From the IMG/VR virus record IMGVR_UViG_3300029068_000003: a stretch of 37,522 nt of DNA; one strand, written 5' to 3'. Shown piece after piece: positions 2,419-36,722 of this stretch (positions are counted from its first letter, which is position 1; each line of letters starts with the position of its first letter). The stretch is from a virus. Lineage: Duplodnaviria; Heunggongvirae; Uroviricota; Caudoviricetes. The position numbers were made by a program, and so were the translations under genes. Below the pieces are notes generated by a model. It was not told where the DNA came from. It did not search any database and saw only the letters and a list, made by a program, of their open reading frames with translations.

Positions 2419-2963
2419 GCCTCCATCGCTTTATCAGGTTTGTCGGTGTTACTGCCCTGACCGTTCTCTCTGTGACGATGCCCGTTATAGGCAAGCCGCA
2501 TCGCTGACATGGTGGTGCCGCCGGAGTCGCACAGGTCTTTCACCTGTCCTGTCACTTCCAGGTCCATTTCAAAACGTGCTTCAGGTGCATTGCGAAACGT
2601 GATCGTTTTACCTGCACCGTCCACCACGATCCCCTCCCGGGTCAGCATCACGGACTGCCCCTGATCGTCATAGACAGCCACCTCACCCGTCTGCAGCCCT
2701 TTCAGGCGGTAGCGCCGGTCCGACACCGTAACAACCACCGCATGAGAACGGTCGCCATCCGGAAACAACACCACCGCTTCCGCACCGCTGTTTGCCCTTG
2801 CGGTAAAACCGTAGGGTTCAAGATGCTCAACCCCGGCTTTGGGTTCACCGGCAATCAGGGACACATCCACGGTCTGACATTTCGTGGCGGCACTGATGCT
2901 TTTCACCACGGCCCGCCCAATCAGGCCGAGGAGTTGTCGCTGCATGGCTTCAATCGTCCTCAT
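2415..2963 (-). CDS. Baseplate assembly protein V / spike (Mu gp45-like)
   Basis: 182 aa ORF, ATG start, between the hub-like gene and the gp46-like gene. Confidence 0.55.
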   Translation of the reverse strand: MRTIEAMQRQLLGLIGRAVVKSISAATKCQTVDVSLIAGEPKAGVEHLEPYGFTARANSGAEAVVLFPDGDRSHAVVVTVSDRRYRLKGLQTGEVAVYDDQGQSVMLTREGIVVDGAGKTITFRNAPEARFEMDLEVTGQVKDLCDSGGTTMSAMRLAYNGHRHRENGQGSNTDKPDKAMEA

Positions 2964-4042
2964 CAGAACGGATCCTCCTGTACTCTGGCTTTTTTCTTTT
3001 TCCGCGCGCCGGGGGCTTCGGGTTCAGGCAGATAAGCATCAGGTGGGCCGACACGGATTTCCGTCAGGGTGCCGTTCTGGTCCTGAGTAAACGTGACTTC
3101 CGAGACAAGCAGTTCGGTATTGTCGAAACCACAGACCGGATCGAAGACAATCACCCGCTGGTTGGGCTGCCACAGCGTACCGTTACCCTGTCGCCAGCCC
3201 TGCACCACATAGGTGGTTTCATCCGTCCGCGCCGCCCGTTGTCGGGCTTCAAAGTCAGCACGCGCAATACAGCCTGCCCCCGTAGCCTGCCCTGTCTGCC
3301 TGATATACATCGGACGGTAACGGGCAATAAATGCATCCTCTGTGCGGGCCCGCAGCGCGGTGGTGGTGGCCTCACCGAAATCATCGTCGTTTCCGGCACG
3401 CTGCCCCGCTACCTGGTAAACTGAAAACCGCTCCCGGATACTCTTCTCCGTATCACAGGAAAGGATGTTTTCCCCAAGTACCAGCGCGGTATGTGCCCGC
3501 GTTGAGCCAATACCACCAATCACCAGCCTGCCGTGCGGGTCGTCATAAGCCAGCGCCTGCTGCTGACCGAGTATTTTGTTGATCACCTCGATCACCGTTT
3601 CACCGTGATCAGGCTGGACATCCGGAATAACACCCGACGGCGCATCGCTGTTCACCACCTCAATGCCGAAAGGCGCAGCAAGCGCCTGCGCAATCTGTAC
3701 CAGCGATCGTCCGTTAAACTGTGTCGGTTCGGCTGCACAGTCAATCAGGTCAGCAGTCAGACTACGTCCGGCAATACCGGTGCTGACCGAACGGGCATCG
3801 TAATGAACGGGGGTCGCCTCCACCCAGCCGGTGATCACCAGCTCATCACCAATCAGCACTTCCACTTTTGAACCATTTTTAATGCGCGGCTGAAGCGTGG
3901 TGATACCCTCATCTCCCGGCCACTGGCGGGTGATCTCCACGCTGAAATCCCGCGCCAGCCGTTCAATACCGGCACCGATGCGCACCGATGTCCAGCCATT
4001 CCACTCCCGGCCATTTACCCGTAGCGTGACATTGTCGTTCAT
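2963..4042 (-). CDS. Baseplate hub / tail protein (Mu gp44, P2 gpD-like)
   Basis: 359 aa ORF, ATG start, directly downstream of the DNA circulation protein gene. Confidence 0.55.
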   Translation of the reverse strand: MNDNVTLRVNGREWNGWTSVRIGAGIERLARDFSVEITRQWPGDEGITTLQPRIKNGSKVEVLIGDELVITGWVEATPVHYDARSVSTGIAGRSLTADLIDCAAEPTQFNGRSLVQIAQALAAPFGIEVVNSDAPSGVIPDVQPDHGETVIEVINKILGQQQALAYDDPHGRLVIGGIGSTRAHTALVLGENILSCDTEKSIRERFSVYQVAGQRAGNDDDFGEATTTALRARTEDAFIARYRPMYIRQTGQATGAGCIARADFEARQRAARTDETTYVVQGWRQGNGTLWQPNQRVIVFDPVCGFDNTELLVSEVTFTQDQNGTLTEIRVGPPDAYLPEPEAPGARKKKKARVQEDPF

Positions 4043-27912: not shown

Positions 27913-28517
27913 GCGTTAGTTTCTCCACAGTCACGACACGCCACGGCGCCCGGAGCTGCACACTCGCGGGCGTCATTACTTTCTGAAATGCAAAAGATTT
28001 TGTAGACCAGTGCTGCATGCTCCTGCAGCTTCGAAATTGAGAGATACAGCTCGTCGTTAATTGCTGTCTTCTCATGCGGTTCCACCACACCGTCTTCGAT
28101 TGCCGAACGAATCTGTCTGGAATAACTGCCAATCTGTTCAATGACTTCCAGCAGGCGCTGGTTAATATCGGCGTTGTCCACATCCTCGACGTCAGGAAGA
28201 GACACAAAGACGCCATTTGCAGACTGCGCCACAGCGTCAGCAATGAAGTGAGTTCCACCAGCACGTTGCAAAATCATTGCCCATCCCAGCGGGAAAATCT
28301 GATCGCCATCGGCACGAAGGCGGTTAAATAATGCGTTTTCTGTTACATCCAGCCAGTCAGCTGCTTCAGCGTAACCACCCGGCAACGCTGCGATAGTTTT
28401 TCTGACAGCTTTCACGTACCACTCAGGCTGTTTTTCTACTTTCCAGTGATGCTTACCCACGGTTAGCCTCATCGTTCTGTGGTTTCTGTTAATCGATTTA
28501 TCCATTAGATTTTTCAT
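27909..28517 (-). CDS. CII-like regulatory protein (CP76 family-like), start uncertain
   Basis: Segment ...[36 protein letters not shown]... resembles the CP76 CII-like family as recalled; ORF-track start is GTG at 28574 (overlaps cro by 77 nt); in-frame ATGs at 28517 and 28505. Confidence 0.4.
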
Positions 28518-28698
28518 AAAGCTCAGGTTTAAATGGCAACCGTCCGCAAGTTCTATATGCAGCTTCTGCTGCACGTCCTTTTGGAATTAACTGGCCCGGA
28601 CGGTTTCGCCACTGATAAACGGCTTCAGTTGTTATGCCGAAAAAAGCAGCAACTTTCTCAATACTGCCGAAGTAGCTTTCGATATCGTCAGTTGTCAT
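28498..28698 (-). CDS. Cro-like repressor
   Basis: 66 aa HTH protein (...VAAFFGITTEAVYQWRN...), divergent from the cI-like gene, GGAGGG Shine-Dalgarno. Confidence 0.65.
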   Translation of the reverse strand: MTTDDIESYFGSIEKVAAFFGITTEAVYQWRNRPGQLIPKGRAAEAAYRTCGRLPFKPELYEKSNG

Positions 28699-28795
28699 AC
28701 GCCCTCCAAACTAAGTTTTATTAGATGCTAATTACAAATCTATCTTTGGTCAATAAAAACTAAGATTACTTAGCAATTCAAGAAATGGTGCTCCT
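28699..28795. promoter_or_regulatory. Immunity-region operator/promoter (OR, divergent cro and cI promoters)
   Basis: 97-bp AT-rich gap between divergent cro and cI; palindrome AAACTAAGTTT (28708-28718) and CTAAG-ATTA-CTTAG (28760-28773). Confidence 0.55.
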
Positions 28796-29422
28796 ATGGA
28801 AACGGTTGGTCAGCGTATAAAAGCTCTGAGAAGAGTTACCGGAACGTCCCAGAAAGAATTGGGTAAATTTTGTGGAGTAAGCGACGTTGCTGTGGGGTAC
28901 TGGGAGAAAGACATCAATACCCCTGGTGGGGAGGCACTTTCGAAATTAGCGAAGTTCTTCAATACGTCAATAGATTACATTCTTTATGGTGCTGAGTTTG
29001 AAGGCAAACTCGTCACAAACATGCGCAGAGTTCCTGTAATATCGTGGGTTCAGGCTGGGCAGTTTACTGAGTGCAGGGCAGCAGAAGTGTTTAGTGAAGT
29101 GGACAAGTGGGTAGATACATCATTAAAGATTGGTGATAACTCATTTGCATTAGAGGTTAAAGGTGACTCCATGACTAACCCTAATGGCCTCCCAACAATA
29201 CCAGAAGGCGCAACAGTGATTGTAGATCCAGATGCAGAACCTCGTCATGGAAAAATAGTCATCGCTCGACTTGATGGAACAAACGAAGCTACAGTAAAAA
29301 AATTAGTCATCGATGGCCCTCAAAAGTTTTTAGTGCCATTAAATCCTCGGTATCCCAACATCCCTATCAATGGTAATTGCCTTATCATTGGTGTAGTCAA
29401 AGGAGTTCAATACGAACTCTAA
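28796..29422 (+). CDS. CI-type repressor (XRE HTH + S24 LexA-like autopeptidase)
   Basis: 208 aa; N-terminal HTH (QKELGKFCGVSDVAVGYWEKD); C-terminal Ser/Lys dyad context (VKGDSM ... ATVKKLV). Confidence 0.8.
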   Translation: METVGQRIKALRRVTGTSQKELGKFCGVSDVAVGYWEKDINTPGGEALSKLAKFFNTSIDYILYGAEFEGKLVTNMRRVPVISWVQAGQFTECRAAEVFSEVDKWVDTSLKIGDNSFALEVKGDSMTNPNGLPTIPEGATVIVDPDAEPRHGKIVIARLDGTNEATVKKLVIDGPQKFLVPLNPRYPNIPINGNCLIIGVVKGVQYEL

Positions 29423-29669
29423 GACCTCTCTTCTCTAACTAAGGCACCGAACTAAGAAAAGTTTGGTGTTTTCTCTTGCCATAACAACTAAGTTAAGTTA
29501 GATTTTATATCAAAGATAACGAACAGGCAGGACGCCCACGAAGTAGCCGCCTGGGGCATATGAAGTCCAGGATGATTCGTTAGCAACAAAAAAGCGCCCT
29601 ACAGGACGCTTAGCTCTTTAACAATCTGGTCCCCATCAACAAGTAACTGATAACTTGAGGAGGTGTGAA
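29423..29669 (+). promoter_or_regulatory. Candidate OL/pL region
   Basis: Repeated ACTAAG half-sites, including the same AACTAAGTT palindrome (29486-29494) found in OR; GAGGAGG Shine-Dalgarno for the downstream ORF. Confidence 0.4.
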
Positions 29670-29876
29670 ATGCACAAAACAGAACCAAAAATCGTCGCGC
29701 CCGGATACACAAATGAGGAAATTTACGAGTGGATGGCAAAGAAGCTGGCAGCTATAAACCAGCTTCGTGAAGTGCTGTCTTATCGACAGGAAACAATAGA
29801 CTCCTTAAAAAAACTGGATCAGGAAATCACGGTTTTATCACAGGATGTTACTTTAGATATTGTGCAGACAAATTAG
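29670..29876 (+). CDS. Small early-left protein, function unknown
   Basis: ORF-track start is TTG at 29655; ATG at 29670 lies 6 nt after GAGGAGG; 68 aa. Confidence 0.45.
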   Translation: MHKTEPKIVAPGYTNEEIYEWMAKKLAAINQLREVLSYRQETIDSLKKLDQEITVLSQDVTLDIVQTN

Positions 29877-30282
29877 GATCCCATTCATTTTCGTCAAAAT
29901 CATCAAAGTGATGAATTTGTGATCTCCAGTCTCGATAATCTAAAAATTTCTGGGCGGTTACGCTTATTTTATCAAGTGTGAGTTCATCCTGAATTGAAAG
30001 AAGAAGTTCATCAAATTTCATCTCATTAATCTGTTTTGGCATCCAGTGATGCTTCATCAGAATAAGGTGAACCAGAGCCTTTTTCCCATTCAACTGATTA
30101 TAGGGAGTGCCGAATTTCTTCCGGTGCTCATGTAAGACAAGGTCCAGAAGAGTAAGTAATGTTGCCCTTGATTCAACTTTGCTTATTTCGACTGATGACA
30201 CTACCCCACTGATTTCAATGCCCCGATACTTTCCAACATTTTCACAGTGGGATTTGTACAGCGTATAGATATTACCGGACAT
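29848..30282 (-). CDS. Hypothetical protein encoded antisense to the early-left operon (moron candidate)
   Basis: 144 aa AT-rich ORF, ATG start, convergent with and overlapping the 3' end of 29670..29876; direct repeats upstream; no recognisable domain. Confidence 0.45.
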   Translation of the reverse strand: MSGNIYTLYKSHCENVGKYRGIEISGVVSSVEISKVESRATLLTLLDLVLHEHRKKFGTPYNQLNGKKALVHLILMKHHWMPKQINEMKFDELLLSIQDELTLDKISVTAQKFLDYRDWRSQIHHFDDFDENEWDPNLSAQYLK

Positions 30283-30297
30283 TTCTTTTCCTTTTGC

Positions 30298-30349
30298 GTT
30301 GTTGGGGATAACCAGATTAACCGAATCCTTGTTGTTGGGGAATAACCAG
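30298..30349. repeat. Direct repeat pair upstream of the antisense gene (candidate regulator binding sites)
   Basis: gttgttggggataaccag (30298-30315) and gttgttggggaataaccag (30331-30349). Confidence 0.5.
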
Positions 30350-30549
30350 GTCCACCTCGCCTGATGTGGCTAAAAGCAGGCACATAACAGCTAAGTATTT
30401 TCAACCAGAGAGAATTCTTAGCGTTGTGGTGAATGCGGCTCAGCGCACGCGGGTTAAGGTTGAGGCTGACAGTCGACCTTCTGTGGATACCCACCCGCCT
30501 GGTGTGCAACCTTCGCCAGGCACCGGGAGGCACCCGGCACCACAACTTT

Positions 30550-30613
30550 ATGCTGTGTGTAGTCTTGGCGGTACCAGTTTGTACTCTTGCTTCCGGCTGG
30601 TACCGTCCTTTTT
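30550..30613 (+). ncRNA. Candidate small RNA with intrinsic terminator (possible DicF-like sRNA)
   Basis: 9-bp stem cggtaccag/ctggtaccg (30569-30577 / 30597-30605) followed by tcc + TTTTT (30609-30613); 5' arm uggcgguaccaguuuguacuc resembles the DicF seed region as recalled from memory only. Confidence 0.3.
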
Positions 30614-30702
30614 ACAAAACAGAGAAGAGCATCACCGGACGACGGGCTCATAACCCAATCCATCCGGGCGGCTGCCACCGCAGGTGTTCTTCTCTGTTTT
30701 GT
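30614..30702. repeat. Long inverted repeat (15-bp arms, 59-nt spacer) upstream of the YfdP-like gene
   Basis: acaaaacagagaaga (30614-30628) and tcttctctgttttgt (30688-30702) are exact reverse complements. Confidence 0.55.
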
Positions 30703-30750
30703 GGAGAAACTAATCGGCCTTGCAGGGTCGATATGATGAGGAGCAGCAAA

Positions 30751-31113
30751 ATGGCTAGCGAACGCAGTACTGATGTGCAGGCATTTATCGGGGAGCTGGA
30801 CGGCGGCGTATTTGAAACCAAAATCGGCGCAGTTCTCAGTGAAGTCGCTTCCGGTGTGATGAACACGAAAACCAAAGGGAAGGTCTCACTCAATCTGGAA
30901 ATCGAACCGTTTGATGAGAACCGTGTGAAAATCAAACACAAACTCTCATATGTTCGCCCAACTAACCGCGGGAAAATTTCCGAAGAAGACACCACCGAAA
31001 CGCCGATGTATGTCAATCGCGGTGGTCGCCTGACTATTCTGCAGGAAGACCAGGGACAATTACTGACTCTTGCCGGTGAACCTGACGGAAAACTCCGCGC
31101 AGCAGGTCGTTAA
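30751..31113 (+). CDS. YfdP-like prophage protein
   Basis: 120 aa from ATG 30751 (GAGGAG 7 nt upstream); the longer track ORF from 30433 runs through the structured region and is unlikely. Confidence 0.45.
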   Translation: MASERSTDVQAFIGELDGGVFETKIGAVLSEVASGVMNTKTKGKVSLNLEIEPFDENRVKIKHKLSYVRPTNRGKISEEDTTETPMYVNRGGRLTILQEDQGQLLTLAGEPDGKLRAAGR

Positions 31114-34394: not shown

Positions 34395-36722
34395 ATGGCA
34401 TTTAACCTTACCCGTATGACAGTTTATGCTCTTCTTTGCGCTTTAGAGGAAGACCTCCGTTCAATAGTTGTAAGTTACATCTTGAAGCCAGAAGATAAAG
34501 AAATAAAACTACCAAACGAACTTTTAGAAAAAGCTAAAAGAAGACTAGAAAAAGACCTCGGCACTGTGATGGATGGTATAGAATCAATTGATTTAATAGA
34601 ATATTTTGACCTTGGAGATACTTACCAAATCATAAATTCCAATGGAAAGGAAATTCCCGATCACATATATAAATTCATAAAATCCATTACCAAAGATTTG
34701 GACTCTCTCGTTCTAATAAGAAACAGAGTTATGCATATTCGACCATTAGACGTAGAAGATTACCCTACGCTTGCATCTATTTGCGAAAAGATAATAAAAT
34801 CCGAAACAAACTGTTGGTCTAACCTTACAGAAATATCCCAAAAAATAAATAACAACCCCAGCTTCTTGTTATCGATGGAAATTAAAAATTATGATGAAGA
34901 AAAGCAAAATCATAATTTACCCCTCCCTGATTTTGATGAAACAGGATTGATAGGAAGACAAAGTCATGTCCAAAAAGTAAAACAACTTTGCTATGGAGCG
35001 TTCCCTGTCATTTCCATAGTTGGAGAAGGTGGCGTAGGAAAAACTGCGCTGGCACTTAAAGTTGCTTATGAAATACTCGAGGATGAAGATAATCCTTTTG
35101 ATGCAATTGTTTGGGTTTCATCAAAAACCACACAAATAACTGTAAATGAAATAAAAGAAATCAAAGACGCTATATCCGACTCCATAGGGGTTATACAGGA
35201 AATATCAAATCAAATAATTGGAACGAGTGTAAAACAATCGAATTTTGAAGAGATAATCGAATATCTTACGACATTTAAAATCGCTCTTTTCATTGATAAT
35301 CTCGAGACAATCCTTGATGATAACATACGCGAATTTGTTGGTGCTTTACCTCAAGGAAGTAAAATAATAATAACATCAAGAATCGGATTGGGTGCATTTG
35401 AGTATCCAGTGAGATTGCAAGGTATCGATGAATCATATGCTTCACAATTAATGAGAATATTGGCAAAAATAAGAGGTGTTGACTCCTTAGAGAAAATAGA
35501 AGAAAAAATAATGAGGAGTTATGTCAATCGTATGTCGCGTAACCCAAGTTACATTAAGTGGTTCGTAAGTTCGGTTCAAACGGGATTGAGCCCTGAAGCA
35601 GTTCTTCAAAATTCAAATATGTTTCTTGATTTTTGCATGTCAAATGTTTATGAGTATTTATCTACAAATGCCAGGACACTTACTGCAGCCCTACAGTGTG
35701 CTCCCGGTTTAAAAGACGTACCTGAGCTATCTTATTTAACTGGATTTGACTCCCTTCAAACTCATCAATCCATTCAAGAATTGATGGCTACAAATATGTT
35801 GTCACAATCATCTAAAACGAAAGGTGCAAGTGTTAAAACCACTTACCAATTATCTGAATTAGCAAGGTTATATTTAGGCAAGAATCATAAACCGACCCAG
35901 ACTTATCAAAAAAGCATTCATGAAAAGCGGAACAAATTAAATGCACTTTTTGAAAAACAGCTGATGTCGAGAAGTGAAGATAAATATAATCCTCTGAATA
36001 TAAAATTCAGGGATAAATCTGATCGAGTTATTGTGAAAATGCTTAGAGACTCTCAGTCATTTATAAGAAATGGTCATCACGATAAAGCATTTGAATTACT
36101 CACTGAATCACACAAATTATCCCCAGACTATTTTGAAGTTGCTCGCGTGATGGCCTACTTACATCAACAGAATGGTGCAATTAGTGATGCCCGTGAGCAA
36201 TACGAATTGGCTATTGTATTATCACCTGACACACCTCAATTACACTACTGGTTCGCAAAATTCTTACTGCGTGAAGAGGATAATGTCGATGACGCTTTAA
36301 CTCAAATACAGCTAGCACATAATTTAGACCCCACATCTATTGAAGTATCTCTATCTTTGTCAAGAGTCTATATGTTCCAACATAGATTTGATGAGGCTGA
36401 AAATGTTCTTTCACTCATAGAATTAGATATTAAAAACTCTAGTGAACATAATATAAAAATATTTAAAGATACACACATTCAAATATCTTACCGGAGAGCT
36501 GATAATTTAGCTCAAAAAGGTGAGTATTCTGAAGCAATGTCATATCTAGAGAAAATGCTTGAGCAATTTGAGGAACTACCCGATTATTACAAAGATGTGC
36601 ATATTAGAAAAAAATTATCGAAATGCGAATTTCTATTGAAGACAATTTCTCGTAGTGCAGATCAATTAATCCTTCACAGAGCTGATAATTTTAGAGAATG
36701 GCTACAAAAAGAATGTGCTTAA
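34395..36722 (+). CDS. HEPN - P-loop NTPase (STAND/NB-ARC-like) - TPR-like repeat protein; candidate antiviral STAND (Avs-like) or abortive-infection effector
   Basis: N-terminal RNxxxH HEPN motif (LVLIRNRVMHIRP); Walker A GEGGVGKTALA; Walker B-like IALFIDNLE; helical repeat C-terminus; AT-rich; own terminator; start taken at ATG 34395 (GGAGAG upstream) rather than 34383. Confidence 0.65.
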   Translation: MAFNLTRMTVYALLCALEEDLRSIVVSYILKPEDKEIKLPNELLEKAKRRLEKDLGTVMDGIESIDLIEYFDLGDTYQIINSNGKEIPDHIYKFIKSITKDLDSLVLIRNRVMHIRPLDVEDYPTLASICEKIIKSETNCWSNLTEISQKINNNPSFLLSMEIKNYDEEKQNHNLPLPDFDETGLIGRQSHVQKVKQLCYGAFPVISIVGEGGVGKTALALKVAYEILEDEDNPFDAIVWVSSKTTQITVNEIKEIKDAISDSIGVIQEISNQIIGTSVKQSNFEEIIEYLTTFKIALFIDNLETILDDNIREFVGALPQGSKIIITSRIGLGAFEYPVRLQGIDESYASQLMRILAKIRGVDSLEKIEEKIMRSYVNRMSRNPSYIKWFVSSVQTGLSPEAVLQNSNMFLDFCMSNVYEYLSTNARTLTAALQCAPGLKDVPELSYLTGFDSLQTHQSIQELMATNMLSQSSKTKGASVKTTYQLSELARLYLGKNHKPTQTYQKSIHEKRNKLNALFEKQLMSRSEDKYNPLNIKFRDKSDRVIVKMLRDSQSFIRNGHHDKAFELLTESHKLSPDYFEVARVMAYLHQQNGAISDAREQYELAIVLSPDTPQLHYWFAKFLLREEDNVDDALTQIQLAHNLDPTSIEVSLSLSRVYMFQHRFDEAENVLSLIELDIKNSSEHNIKIFKDTHIQISYRRADNLAQKGEYSEAMSYLEKMLEQFEELPDYYKDVHIRKKLSKCEFLLKTISRSADQLILHRADNFREWLQKECA

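What the first reader, a model, noticed from the sequence alone, without database searches (positions are those of the whole stretch)
29848..30349. Antisense gene within the early-left operon, flanked by a near-perfect 18-19 bp direct repeat pair
A 144 aa ORF runs on the minus strand against the cI/early-left direction and overlaps the 3' end of the upstream small gene. Its 5' region carries two copies of gttgttgggga(t/a)aaccag 33 bp apart, which look like binding sites for a dimeric regulator or a partition/iteron-like element. The protein has no motif I recognise.
Basis: seen in the sequence. Interest (0 to 1): 0.5.

Follow-up and report, generated by a model that had tools for sequence, protein, structure and literature searches.

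The report
Swappable antisense gene socket in prophage
The backward-facing gene and its two repeats are real. They form a variant of the lambda/P22 sieB-sas arrangement, in which a prophage accessory gene sits antisense in the early-left operon next to an antisense-RNA region that carries the repeats.

Summary
A 144-aa ORF lies on the minus strand (29848-30282). Its 3' end overlaps a 68-aa plus-strand ORF by 29 nt. Two repeats, GTTGTTGGGGA(A)TAACCAG, start at 30298 and 30331.

The repeats are not CI operators, iterons or partition sites. The stretch 30298-30384 is collinear with, and about 68% identical to, the region upstream of sieB in lambda and to the published P22 sas antisense RNA. All three have two repeats 33-35 nt apart followed by a pseudoknot.

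In 152 related loci the same frame surrounds 8 unrelated cargo families, and the longest ORF is antisense in 149 of them. The frame reads: minus-strand terminator, rrn-type boxA, left arm, cargo, right arm (repeat copy 1), repeat copy 2.

Copy 1 is one arm of a co-varying inverted repeat that brackets the cargo. Copy 2 is a plus-strand hairpin with a GGGG loop. Together they also carry a minus-strand TTCCCC-17 nt-TAATCT promoter-like element.

The 144-aa protein (ECs1072 family) has no informative fold match. It co-diverges with its 68-aa partner.

Likely mechanism: the cargo is expressed in the lysogen. On induction, boxA-modified PL transcription reads through it and supplies a sas-like antisense RNA, and perhaps a protein inhibitor, that shuts it off. 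The biochemical function is unknown. I rate this a new variant of a known kind.

The parts
29450..29510 (+). OL/PL: CI-operator-like sites (29450-29467, 29486-29503) overlapping the early-left promoter TTGCCA-17-TAGATT (29476-29504).
   Evidence: Promoter scan. The operator motif AACTAAG..TTAG is shared with the cI-cro intergenic region at 28709-28773.
29518..29581 (+). Conserved structured PL leader. It is shared with SfIV, SfV, PhiR29, mEp460_4F5, ST64B and, in diverged form, Rac. It lies outside the cargo module.
   Evidence: blastn boundaries; sequences.
29582..29611 (-). Intrinsic terminator for the cargo transcript: hairpin 29592-29611 followed by a U-run on the minus strand.
   Evidence: Terminator scan: 8 pairs, tail TTTTGTTGCT. 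The stem has a G.U pair on the minus strand but a C.A mismatch on the plus strand. It is conserved in the module variants while the loop varies.
29613..29624 (+). rrn-type boxA, GCTCTTTAACAA, about 105 nt downstream of the PL start.
   Evidence: Read directly from the sequence. This is a 12/12 match to the E. coli rrn boxA core as I recall it. It is present in the modules with antisense cargo. It is absent from SfV and mEp460_4F5, which carry a sense-strand cargo, and from ST64B, which has none.
29623..29643 (+). Left arm of the cargo-bracketing inverted repeat (AATCTGGTCCCCATCAACAAG).
   Evidence: the repeat finder pair I2. Covariation with the right arm: 16 pairs, 90% paired, 9 pairs changed on both sides, 0 of 500 shuffles reach this.
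29670..29876 (+). 68-aa ORF (phrog_1744). It is the first gene on the PL transcript in this cassette and is convergent with the 144-aa gene. It is a candidate inhibitor or partner of that gene.
   Evidence: phrog_1744 E 4.8e-34. It co-occurs and co-diverges with the 144-aa gene in three diverged cassettes: 36/50/38% versus 34/52/33% identity, with pN below pS.
29848..30282 (-). 144-aa cargo gene, ECs1072 family (phrog_5286). All-alpha protein of unknown function.
30298..30318 (+). Repeat copy 1, which is the right arm of the inverted repeat. It corresponds to the first CUGUAGGGG repeat of P22 sas. On the minus strand it holds the -10-like TAATCT (30319-30314) and the predicted start of the cargo mRNA.
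30327..30350 (+). Repeat copy 2 (30331-49), a plus-strand hairpin with a GGGG loop (30337-30340). It corresponds to the second repeat of P22 sas. On the minus strand it holds the -35-like TTCCCC (30342-30337).
   Evidence: Hairpin: 87% paired versus at most 64% when slid, with a near-invariant G.U pair. Constant 17-nt spacing to the -10-like hexamer in all variants.
30352..30384 (+). Pseudoknot that ends the sas-like segment. Helix 1 is 30352-55 with 30366-69. Helix 2 is 30359-63 with 30377-81.
   Evidence: Helix 2 is 97.5% paired, with 3 of 5 pairs changed on both sides. The alignment includes P22 sas, Rac and SfV.
30393..30616 (+). Downstream STnc100/PasD-family RNA whose 3' end resembles KilS and DicF, with a terminator hairpin. 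It flanks the module and is not part of the repeats.
   Evidence: Rfam STnc100: 44.2 bits (gathering threshold 47), E 1.2e-7; DicF 19.9 bits. Alignment with the Rac kilS region.

Best explanation
The locus is a 'sieB-type socket'. It is a portable regulatory frame in the early-left (PL) leader of SfV/SfIV-like and some Rac-like prophages, and it holds a single accessory gene in antisense orientation. Here the cargo is an ECs1072-family protein, not SieB, together with a small convergent partner gene.

Shown:
- The two direct repeats belong to a segment (about 30272-30384, plus strand) that is homologous to the P22 sas antisense RNA and to the lambda and Rac regions upstream of sieB.
- Copy 2 folds as a GGGG-loop hairpin in the plus-strand RNA, and a pseudoknot follows it.
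- Copy 1 is the 3' arm of a co-varying 13-20 bp inverted repeat. Its 5' arm directly follows an rrn-type boxA, so the two arms bracket the cargo.
- On the minus strand the same DNA carries TTCCCC-17 nt-TAATCT immediately upstream of every cargo gene.
- A minus-strand terminator closes the unit.

Inferred mechanism:
1. In the lysogen CI keeps PL off. The cargo is transcribed from its own promoter and terminated before it can run into PL and cI.
2. After induction or on infection, PL transcripts load Nus factors at boxA and become Rho-resistant. They read about 0.7 kb antisense through the cargo and deliver the sas-like RNA, which is complementary to the cargo's 5' UTR, Shine-Dalgarno sequence and AUG. 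This shuts off cargo synthesis, as sas does for SieB.
3. The left-arm/copy-1 helix acts like an rRNA leader-trailer helix. It loops out the antisense stretch and probably directs processing of it.
4. The 68-aa protein, made only from PL, is a candidate protein-level inhibitor, in the manner of Esc or Ith.

The cargo is most likely a lysogen-expressed exclusion or defence factor. Its biochemistry is unknown.
For: Homology to sas and the sieB upstream region:
- The window segment 30298-30388 gives 63-64 matches in 93 aligned columns with P22 sas and lambda. Shuffled sequences give 47.6 +/- 3.2, maximum 56. Landmarks are collinear.
- K-12 Rac has the same arrangement: ATACCC(C/T)TACAG twice 35 nt apart, then a hairpin, then KilS.
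- sieB is antisense in the PL operon of both lambda and Rac.
- sas is a documented antisense regulator of sieB translation (PMC12197685, PMC7067206, PMC13397905).

Socket:
- 152 modules carry 8 cargo families. The longest ORF is on the minus strand in 149 of them. The flanks are the same.
- The module is also found in a Rac-like context with different outer flanks.

Inverted repeat:
- 90% of cells paired, 9 of 16 pairs with double changes, 0 of 500 shuffles reach this, and slid controls reach at most 52%.
- The long-range helix appears in the MFE and centroid folds.
- The left arm prefers copy 1 in 54 of 61 module types.

Plus-strand RNA:
- The copy-2 hairpin has a G.U pair in 18 of 19 sequences.
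- The plus-strand fold has z = -3.1, against -0.5 for the minus strand.

Promoter-like element:
- The 17-18 nt spacing is invariant.
- T1, A2 and T6 of the -10 hexamer are kept through the variants TAATCT, TACTCT, TATTCT, TATTAT, TAAACT and TAACAT.

Other support:
- boxA is present only with antisense cargo.
- boxA alone protects long untranslated RNAs from Rho (PMC7665894).
- boxA combined with a leader-trailer helix is the rRNA design (PMC10250234).
- The partner gene co-diverges with the cargo.
- A precedent exists for a small overlapping antisense inhibitor gene, Tha/Ith (PMC11087260).
- ECs1072 is detected in a lysogen transcriptome (PMC2241611).
Against: - No transcript data for this phage were available. 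The cargo promoter fails the sigma-70 scan because its -35 matches only 3 of 6 positions. Its start site is only predicted.
- The strand on which the bracketing helix acts is not resolved. Opposite G, the left arm shows T 33 times and A 30 times, so there is no wobble preference. Duplex energies favour the plus strand only mildly: -608 versus -570 kcal/mol summed over 22 types.
- lambda, P22 and K-12 Rac show no evident left arm or adjacent boxA, so that part is not needed for sas function.
- In the window-type cassette the left arm pairs as well with copy 2 as with copy 1.
- The 68-aa partner is missing from one homologous cassette, L217.
- Nothing indicates what the 144-aa protein does. None of the 8 cargo families matches a known defence model.
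- My recollection that sas is derived from the PL transcript could not be checked. The Ranade and Poteete papers are not held.
Confidence: 0.6

Rival explanations
1. The repeats are DNA binding sites for a protein. This could be a host or phage regulator of the cargo promoter, or the first reader's dimeric regulator or iteron. Two sites would cover the -35 and +1 positions, and a third, inverted site 0.7 kb away would allow DNA looping.
For: - The core TGTTGGGGA is kept in both copies even where the rest of copy 1 changes (L013, L322 and L224 types).
- The two copies change together between phage groups: CCCCAACAAC twice here, CCC(C/T)TACAG twice in Rac, lambda and P22.
- Spacing is fixed at 33-35 bp.
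- The repeats overlap a promoter-like element.
Against: - They are not CI operators, and they are identical in phages of different immunity.
- Arm covariation tracks unrelated cargo genes, which a common protein would not require.
- The copy-2 stem contains a conserved G.U pair, so it is RNA, and it shows U-A, U.G and C-G states at one pair.
- No rep or par genes are adjacent.
- In P22 the homologous stretch is an abundant RNA.
Confidence: 0.15
2. The inverted repeats are the ends of a mobile or invertible cassette. This could be a MITE- or MIC-like element with terminal inverted repeats, or a recombinase-flipped switch. In that case the second direct copy would be an extra recombinase site.
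For: - Unrelated cargo genes are bracketed by 13-20 bp inverted repeats with a conserved outer part (AATCTGG/CCAGATT).
- The layout of one inverted copy plus one direct copy resembles multi-site transposon ends.
Against: - The inverted-state junction is found in 0 of the 1396 E. coli genomes that carry a match.
- The cargo sits in the same slot in all 152 modules, and its longest ORF is on the minus strand in 149 of them.
- boxA and copy 2, which lie outside the inverted repeat, travel with the unit into a different phage backbone.
- No transposase or invertase is associated.
- Inner-arm covariation is not needed if one recombinase serves all cassettes.
Confidence: 0.05
3. The helix forms in the cargo mRNA on the minus strand. 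Its 5' UTR would pair with its 3' UTR just before the terminator, closing the mRNA to stabilise it or to mask its ribosome-binding region. The repeats would then be 5'-UTR elements of that mRNA.
For: - The minus-strand fold also contains the long-range helix.
- Duplex energies are nearly as good on the minus strand, and better in 7 of 22 types.
- The terminator directly follows the left arm on the minus strand.
Against: - If the -10-like TAATCT is the promoter, the mRNA starts inside copy 1 and lacks most of the right arm.
- Copy 2 forms a plus-strand-only hairpin.
- The minus-strand fold is no more stable than shuffled sequence (z = -0.5).
- boxA next to the left arm makes sense only on the plus strand.
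Confidence: 0.12
4. Nothing special is happening. The repeats are a relic duplication in a recombination-prone junction between mosaic modules, conserved only because the phages are close relatives.
For: Many of the loci are closely related. For example, 46 of 97 boxA-bounded cassette sequences fall in the window-type cluster.
Against: - The repeat architecture survives at about 68% identity in lambda and P22, and in Rac.
- Compensatory changes occur in three separate helices.
- The hexamer spacing is invariant.
Confidence: 0.05

Closest known systems
sieB / sas / Esc superinfection-exclusion locus of phage P22, with the sieB loci of lambda and the Rac prophage
   Same: - An accessory gene is embedded antisense in the PL operon.
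- The DNA upstream is homologous: two G-rich repeats 33-35 nt apart, a hairpin or pseudoknot, then GGCACA.
- In P22 that DNA is the sas antisense RNA, which controls sieB translation (PMC12197685, PMC13397905).
- A small PL-sense gene abuts or overlaps the 3' end of the antisense gene: N in lambda, ydaF in Rac, the 68-aa ORF here.
   Different: - The cargo is not SieB. It has no Pfam hit, it is an all-alpha protein and no in-frame Esc-type internal product is evident.
- The frame additionally has an rrn-type boxA fused to a left arm that pairs with repeat copy 1. Neither is evident in lambda or K-12 Rac.
- These phages have no N gene in this position.
- The same frame carries at least 8 different cargo families.
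rRNA operon leader: boxB-boxA-boxC antitermination plus the 16S leader-trailer helix
   Same: - A hairpin is followed by GCUCUUUAACAA, then immediately by one strand of a long-range helix. The partner strand lies 0.55-0.9 kb downstream, with covariation (PMC10250234).
- The enclosed RNA is largely untranslated, which is the situation where boxA protects against Rho (PMC7665894).
   Different: - The enclosed RNA is the antisense of a protein gene, not a structural RNA.
- The helix is only 13-20 bp.
- Nus binding and RNase III cleavage are untested.
- The hairpin upstream of boxA is better formed on the opposite strand, where it is a terminator.
Tha/Ith 'noncontiguous operon' of Staphylococcus aureus prophages (PMC11087260)
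   Same: A prophage accessory gene and a small overlapping antisense gene are expressed in opposite life-cycle phases. The proposed logic is immunity during lysogeny and self-protection after induction. The two genes here co-diverge.
   Different: - There is no sequence or fold relationship.
- Polarity is reversed. Here the large gene is the antisense insert and the small gene is on the lytic transcript.
- Inhibition by the 68-aa protein is only a hypothesis.
Prophage 'moron' or defence hotspots (for example the P2/P4 hotspots, bioRxiv 10.1101/2021.01.21.427644)
   Same: A fixed position between conserved flanks where unrelated accessory genes replace each other.
   Different: - Here the flanks are not just recombination handles. 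They form an elaborate shared expression and silencing frame: promoter, terminator, boxA, bracketing helix and antisense RNA.
- None of the cargo genes matches a known defence family.

Membership tests
sieB-sas antisense exclusion locus (P22/lambda/Rac) | Gene embedded in the early-left (PL) operon on the opposite strand, downstream of the repressor and OL/PL. | tested here: met
   PL/OL lie at 29450-29510 and the ORF is on the minus strand. lambda and Rac have the same layout.
sieB-sas antisense exclusion locus (P22/lambda/Rac) | sas-type sequence covering the start of the gene and its upstream region: two repeats plus a 3' structured element. | tested here: met
   68-69% identity to P22 sas and lambda over 93 columns, against 51% for shuffled sequence, with landmarks in the same order. 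The pseudoknot and hairpin are shared.
sieB-sas antisense exclusion locus (P22/lambda/Rac) | The gene encodes SieB (a membrane protein, with an in-frame Esc product). | tested here: not met
   No Pfam family at E up to 1. AF2 gives a soluble all-alpha model. The family is NF033230 ECs1072.
sieB-sas antisense exclusion locus (P22/lambda/Rac) | The antisense RNA is made during lytic growth and switches translation of the target. | not testable with these tools
   Needs RNA mapping and reporter assays. Only complementarity to the cargo's SD, AUG and 5' UTR is shown.
Nus-factor boxA antitermination with a leader-trailer helix (rrn type) | boxA consensus GCUCUUUAACAA in the nascent RNA. | tested here: met
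   29613-29624 on the plus strand, a 12/12 match. Conserved in the modules.
Nus-factor boxA antitermination with a leader-trailer helix (rrn type) | Complementary leader and trailer strands flanking the enclosed RNA, kept by compensatory change. | tested here: met
   16 pairs, 90% paired, 9 with double changes, 0 of 500 shuffles reach this.
Nus-factor boxA antitermination with a leader-trailer helix (rrn type) | NusB/NusE binding, Rho resistance and RNase III processing of the helix. | not testable with these tools
The strand of the helix is unresolved.
CI (immunity repressor) operator | Sequence matches the operators at OR and OL of the same phage. | tested here: not met
   The operators are AACTAAG-N-TTAG palindromes. 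The repeats are unchanged in phages with a different cI.
Iteron or partition site | An array of several direct repeats next to a rep or par gene. | tested here: not met
   Only two direct copies. The neighbours are the cargo gene and an sRNA-like region. The replication gene lies 2.7 kb away on the other side of the immunity region.
Invertible segment or TIR-bounded mobile cassette | Both orientations, or other insertion sites, occur in populations. | tested here: not met
   0 of 1396 genomes have the inverted junction. All 152 modules are in one slot, with the longest ORF on the minus strand in 149.
Type III toxin-antitoxin (ToxIN-like repeat RNA upstream of the toxin) | Tandem identical RNA repeats on the same strand as a ToxN/AbiQ-like toxin, separated from it by a terminator. 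| tested here: not met
   There are two imperfect repeats only. There is no PADLOC or Pfam hit for the protein. The structured RNA is on the opposite strand.
Tha/Ith-type defence gene with an overlapping antisense inhibitor gene | A small overlapping convergent gene that co-evolves with the large gene. | tested here: met
   29-nt overlap. Parallel divergence in three cassettes. The partner is absent in L217.
Tha/Ith-type defence gene with an overlapping antisense inhibitor gene | The large protein blocks phages and the small protein neutralises it. | not testable with these tools
   No functional data. No defence-model match.

The most novel reading that the evidence does not exclude
The boxA-left arm / copy 1-copy 2-pseudoknot frame may be a self-contained, portable RNA device. 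It would reuse the rRNA-operon logic, in which a Nus complex tethered at boxA promotes a leader-trailer helix. The device would carry RNA polymerase antisense through any inserted gene, excise that antisense stretch, and release a sas-like RNA that silences the insert. That would give prophages a plug-and-play socket in which any toxic or abortive-infection gene acquires automatic self-immunity during the phage's own lytic cycle.
Probability: 0.25. Interest if true: 0.75.

Novelty: new variant of a known kind. Interest (0 to 1): 0.55.

Why it matters
- If correct, the 1993 P22 sieB-sas story is one instance of a widespread modular expression and silencing frame in enterobacterial prophages. 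It is found here in contigs or phages from Escherichia, Shigella, Klebsiella, Salmonella and Scandinavium.
- The frame points to at least eight uncharacterised cargo families as candidate lysogen-expressed exclusion or defence genes. These are ECs1072/phrog_5286, phrog_1244, phrog_6315, phrog_7681, phrog_3983 and others. The 68-aa protein is a candidate cognate inhibitor.
- The model gives concrete, testable roles to an rrn-type boxA outside rRNA, nut sites and CRISPR arrays, and to a co-varying leader-trailer-like helix.
- It flags several likely mis-annotated CDSs that run through the RNA region in deposited phage genomes.

Tried and rejected
- CI operators: compared and rejected.
- DNA inversion: a chimeric inverted junction was searched in 5426 complete E. 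coli genomes and never found.
- Function of the 144-aa protein:
  - Pfam and PADLOC gave nothing.
  - NCBIfam and PHROGs gave only 'unknown' families.
  - The afdb50 library was unavailable.
  - A family alignment shows only R54, G66, A69, H72 and W134 conserved, with no recognisable catalytic motif.
- Other cargo genes: Pfam, PADLOC and PHROGs were uninformative. The only hints were weak LprI-like and 2TM-effector-like hits.
- Strand of the bracketing helix: G.U versus A.C counts and duplex energies were inconclusive.
- RNAalifold did not find the copy-2 hairpin on its own. I tested it explicitly instead.
- The sigma-70 scan finds no minus-strand promoter. The promoter-like element rests on conservation only.
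- The genome-contig scan used a gapped pattern with 14 specified bases. It returned almost only chance matches and wasted that cap. Only the E. coli, Scandinavium and one other locus were real.
- The original Ranade and Poteete papers could not be read. A P22 RefSeq fetch used the wrong coordinate frame.
- Type III TA, sigma-54 and sigma-32 promoters, the CsrA site, Hfq ARN motifs and fim-switch-like sites were considered by eye and dropped for lack of fit or testability.
Full report
**1. Observation**

The window is an SfIV/SfV-like lambdoid prophage. It is 98.6-99% identical to phages Kati, vB_EcoS-569R4 and SfIV over 29400-30800.

cI lies at 28796-29422 (+) and cro at 28498-28698 (-). The yfdP/Q/R-like genes, xis and int follow on the plus strand.

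A PL-like promoter sits at 29476-29504. It overlaps AACTAAG..TTAG sites that match those between cI and cro. The plus strand is therefore the early-left direction.

So are its 29-nt 3' overlap with a plus-strand ORF (29670-29876, 68 aa) and the two repeats at 30298-30315 and 30331-30349.

**2. The genes**

The 144-aa protein is a full-length member of NCBIfam NF033230, 'ECs1072 family phage-associated protein' (E 1.7e-46). It also matches phrog_5286 (E 1.5e-90). Both are of unknown function, and there is no Pfam or PADLOC hit.

A profile search of 1.84 billion representative proteins finds only 76 relatives, nearly all single-domain proteins of about 145-155 aa.

The 68-aa ORF (phrog_1744) recurs next to diverged homologues of the 144-aa gene. 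The two diverge in parallel: 36/50/38% versus 34/52/33% identity in the same three pairs. In both, pN is well below a saturated pS. Both are therefore real genes and probably a functional pair. One homologous cassette (L217) lacks the small gene.

**3. A socket, not a one-off**

The stretch between the PL leader and the yfdP leader is replaced in relatives.
- PhiR29 has an unrelated coiled-coil/zinc-ribbon gene of about 170 aa on the minus strand, between the same flanks.
- SfV and mEp460_4F5 have plus-strand genes.
- ST64B has none.

Three scans of viral contigs gave 152 modules with the full frame. They hold 8 cargo families by blastp clustering, and the longest ORF is on the minus strand in 149.

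The frame, left to right on the plus strand, is:
- a hairpin with a U-run on the minus strand, i.e. a minus-strand terminator (29582-29611);
- GCTCTTTAACAA (29613-24), identical to the rrn boxA core;
- a left arm;
- the cargo;
- a right arm, which is repeat copy 1;
- 15 nt of spacer;
- repeat copy 2;
- the sequence conserved from 30352 onward.

The phages with sense-strand cargo or no cargo lack the terminator, boxA and both repeats.

The module also occurs in a Rac-like prophage with different outer flanks, in the position where K-12 Rac has sieB.

**4. Copy 1 is one arm of a co-varying inverted repeat**

Across 38 distinct arm pairs, the 16 ungapped positions are 90% paired. Nine pairs show changes on both sides. 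Examples are GGATATCC/GGATATCC, GGATGACT/AGTCATCC, GTAACCCTC/GAGGGTTAC and CTGAAT/ATTCAG.

None of 500 column shuffles reaches any of the five measures. Sliding the partner by 1-3 columns drops pairing to 52% or less.

The helix appears in the MFE and centroid folds of both strands. The left arm prefers copy 1 over copy 2 in 54 of 61 module types. The window type is the exception: both copies fit (-24.8 versus -27.3 kcal/mol).

The cassette is not invertible. A synthetic inverted-state junction is absent from all 1396 matching genomes among 5426 complete E. coli genomes.

I could not tell from wobble statistics on which strand the helix acts.

**5. The repeats are the sas / sieB-upstream element**

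In lambda, sieB (34482-35036) is antisense to the PL operon and abuts N. In K-12 Rac, sieB is antisense between ydaF and kilR.

Read in the PL direction, lambda has CTGTAGGGGT twice, 34 nt apart. This is followed by AACCACCGAGCCTGATGTGGTTAAAAGACAGGCACA. Rac has the equivalent.

The published small-RNA sequence of P22 sas carries the same two repeats and the same tail (PMC13397905). sas is the antisense RNA that switches sieB translation (Ranade and Poteete 1993, as cited in PMC12197685, PMC7067206 and PMC10461980).

The window segment from copy 1 to GGCACA aligns collinearly with these. It gives 63-64 matches in 93 columns. Shuffled sequences give 47.6 +/- 3.2, with a maximum of 56.

Two RNA structures are shared:
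- Copy 2 forms a 9-10 bp hairpin with a GGGG loop. It is 87% paired, against 64% or less when slid. One pair passes through U-A, U.G and C-G states, and a G.U pair is present in 18 of 19 sequences, so the structure belongs to the PL-sense RNA.
- An H-type pseudoknot follows. Its helix 2 is 97.5% paired, with 3 of 5 pairs changed on both sides.

The plus-strand RNA across the module folds better than shuffled sequence (z = -3.1). The minus strand does not (z = -0.5).

**6. The same DNA read on the minus strand**

Every cargo gene starts 10-25 nt after copy 1.

TTCCCC (30342-30337, inside copy 2) and TAATCT (30319-30314, at the outer edge of copy 1) are separated by exactly 17 nt in all SfV-type variants. 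The spacing is 17-18 nt in lambda, P22 and Rac.

The hexamer varies only at its middle positions: TAATCT, TACTCT, TATTCT, TATTAT, TAAACT and TAACAT. That is the pattern expected of a -10 element with a weak -35.

The consensus scan does not call it, and no start-site data were available. If it is the promoter, the cargo mRNA begins inside copy 1, and only the PL transcript contains both arms in full.

**7. Proposed mechanism (inferred)**

- Lysogen: CI represses PL. The cargo is transcribed from its own promoter and stopped by the minus-strand terminator before it reaches PL and cI. ECs1072 is detected on arrays of an O157 lysogen.
- Induction or infection: PL transcripts acquire the Nus complex at boxA and resist Rho across about 1.1 kb that is largely untranslated. 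boxA alone does this for CRISPR arrays (PMC7665894).
- These transcripts run antisense through the cargo and carry the sas-like segment, which is complementary to the cargo's 5' UTR, SD and AUG. This silences the cargo as sas silences SieB.
- The left arm sits directly behind boxA and would pair with copy 1 as soon as it emerges. This is the geometry of the rRNA leader-trailer helix (PMC10250234). It probably defines a processing site or controls availability of the antisense segment.
- The 68-aa protein is made only from PL and co-evolves with the cargo. It is a candidate Esc- or Ith-like inhibitor (PMC11087260).
- By position (the sieB slot) and by regulation, the cargo is most plausibly an exclusion or defence factor. 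Nothing here shows that.

**8. Comparison and novelty**

The element works like the sieB-sas locus, and by its regulatory DNA it is homologous to that locus. It fails the membership feature 'encodes SieB'.

As far as I could find, the following are new:
- the same frame serves at least eight unrelated cargo families;
- an rrn-type boxA is fused to a co-varying helix that brackets the cargo;
- sas-type RNAs share a GGGG-loop hairpin and a pseudoknot.

None of the deposited records annotates the region. I rate it a new variant of a known kind. It is interesting to phage regulation and defence specialists, but it is not a new category.

Noticed in passing
window 30393-30616 (+): STnc100/PasD-family prophage sRNA-like region (Rfam 44.2 bits, just under the gathering score of 47; E 1.2e-7). 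Its 3' hairpin and U-run (30554-30616) align with the K-12 Rac sRNA KilS and weakly with DicF. It lies between the socket and the yfdP-like gene. A 2026 preprint (10.64898/2026.05.13.724894) links STnc100 and PasD.
   Followed up: partly
window 30352-30381 (+): H-type pseudoknot directly after repeat copy 2: CCAC/GTGG and GCCTG/CAGGC. Helix 2 shows compensatory changes across SfV-type phages, P22 sas, Rac and a GC-rich group (GCCGGG/CCCGGC). It matches no Rfam family.
   Followed up: partly
window 29518-29581 (+): The PL leader is conserved in SfV, SfIV, PhiR29, mEp460_4F5, ST64B and (diverged) Rac. One hairpin changes from CCUGG..CCAGG to CCGGU..ACCGG. These phages lack an N gene here, so the leader may be a regulatory or antitermination RNA. 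In ST64B a ncRNA (STnc1310) and the two downstream genes are induced by DNA damage (PMC7067206).
   Followed up: no
L126-L216 (viral contigs), e.g. L211, L159, L212: The 17-mer GCTCTTTAACAATCTGG occurs in 68 of 180 phage loci that have none of the other module features. This suggests an extended boxA-like motif (boxA plus TCTGG) that is common in unrelated phage leaders.
   Followed up: no
window 30614-30638 / 30678-30702: A 25-nt inverted repeat (84% complementary, 39-nt loop) between the sRNA-like terminator and the start of the yfdP-like gene (30751).
   Followed up: no
window 30201-30545 (-); L001 3184-3528; L003 2633-3361: Deposited CDSs SfIV_35 (114 aa) and the 242-aa PhiR29 CDS (up to 259 aa in the ORF list) run through the repeats and the sRNA-like region. 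They are probably mis-calls. The true PhiR29 gene most likely starts at the GTG or ATG just inside copy 1.
   Followed up: partly
L002 (SfV) 2880-3051, minus strand: SfV, which lacks boxA and the repeats, still appears to have an unannotated small minus-strand ORF convergent with orf33 in the same slot.
   Followed up: no
window 28709-28773 and 29450-29503: Putative CI operators AACTAAG-N-TTAG at OR and OL. mEp460_4F5 has the same immunity region as this window.
   Followed up: partly
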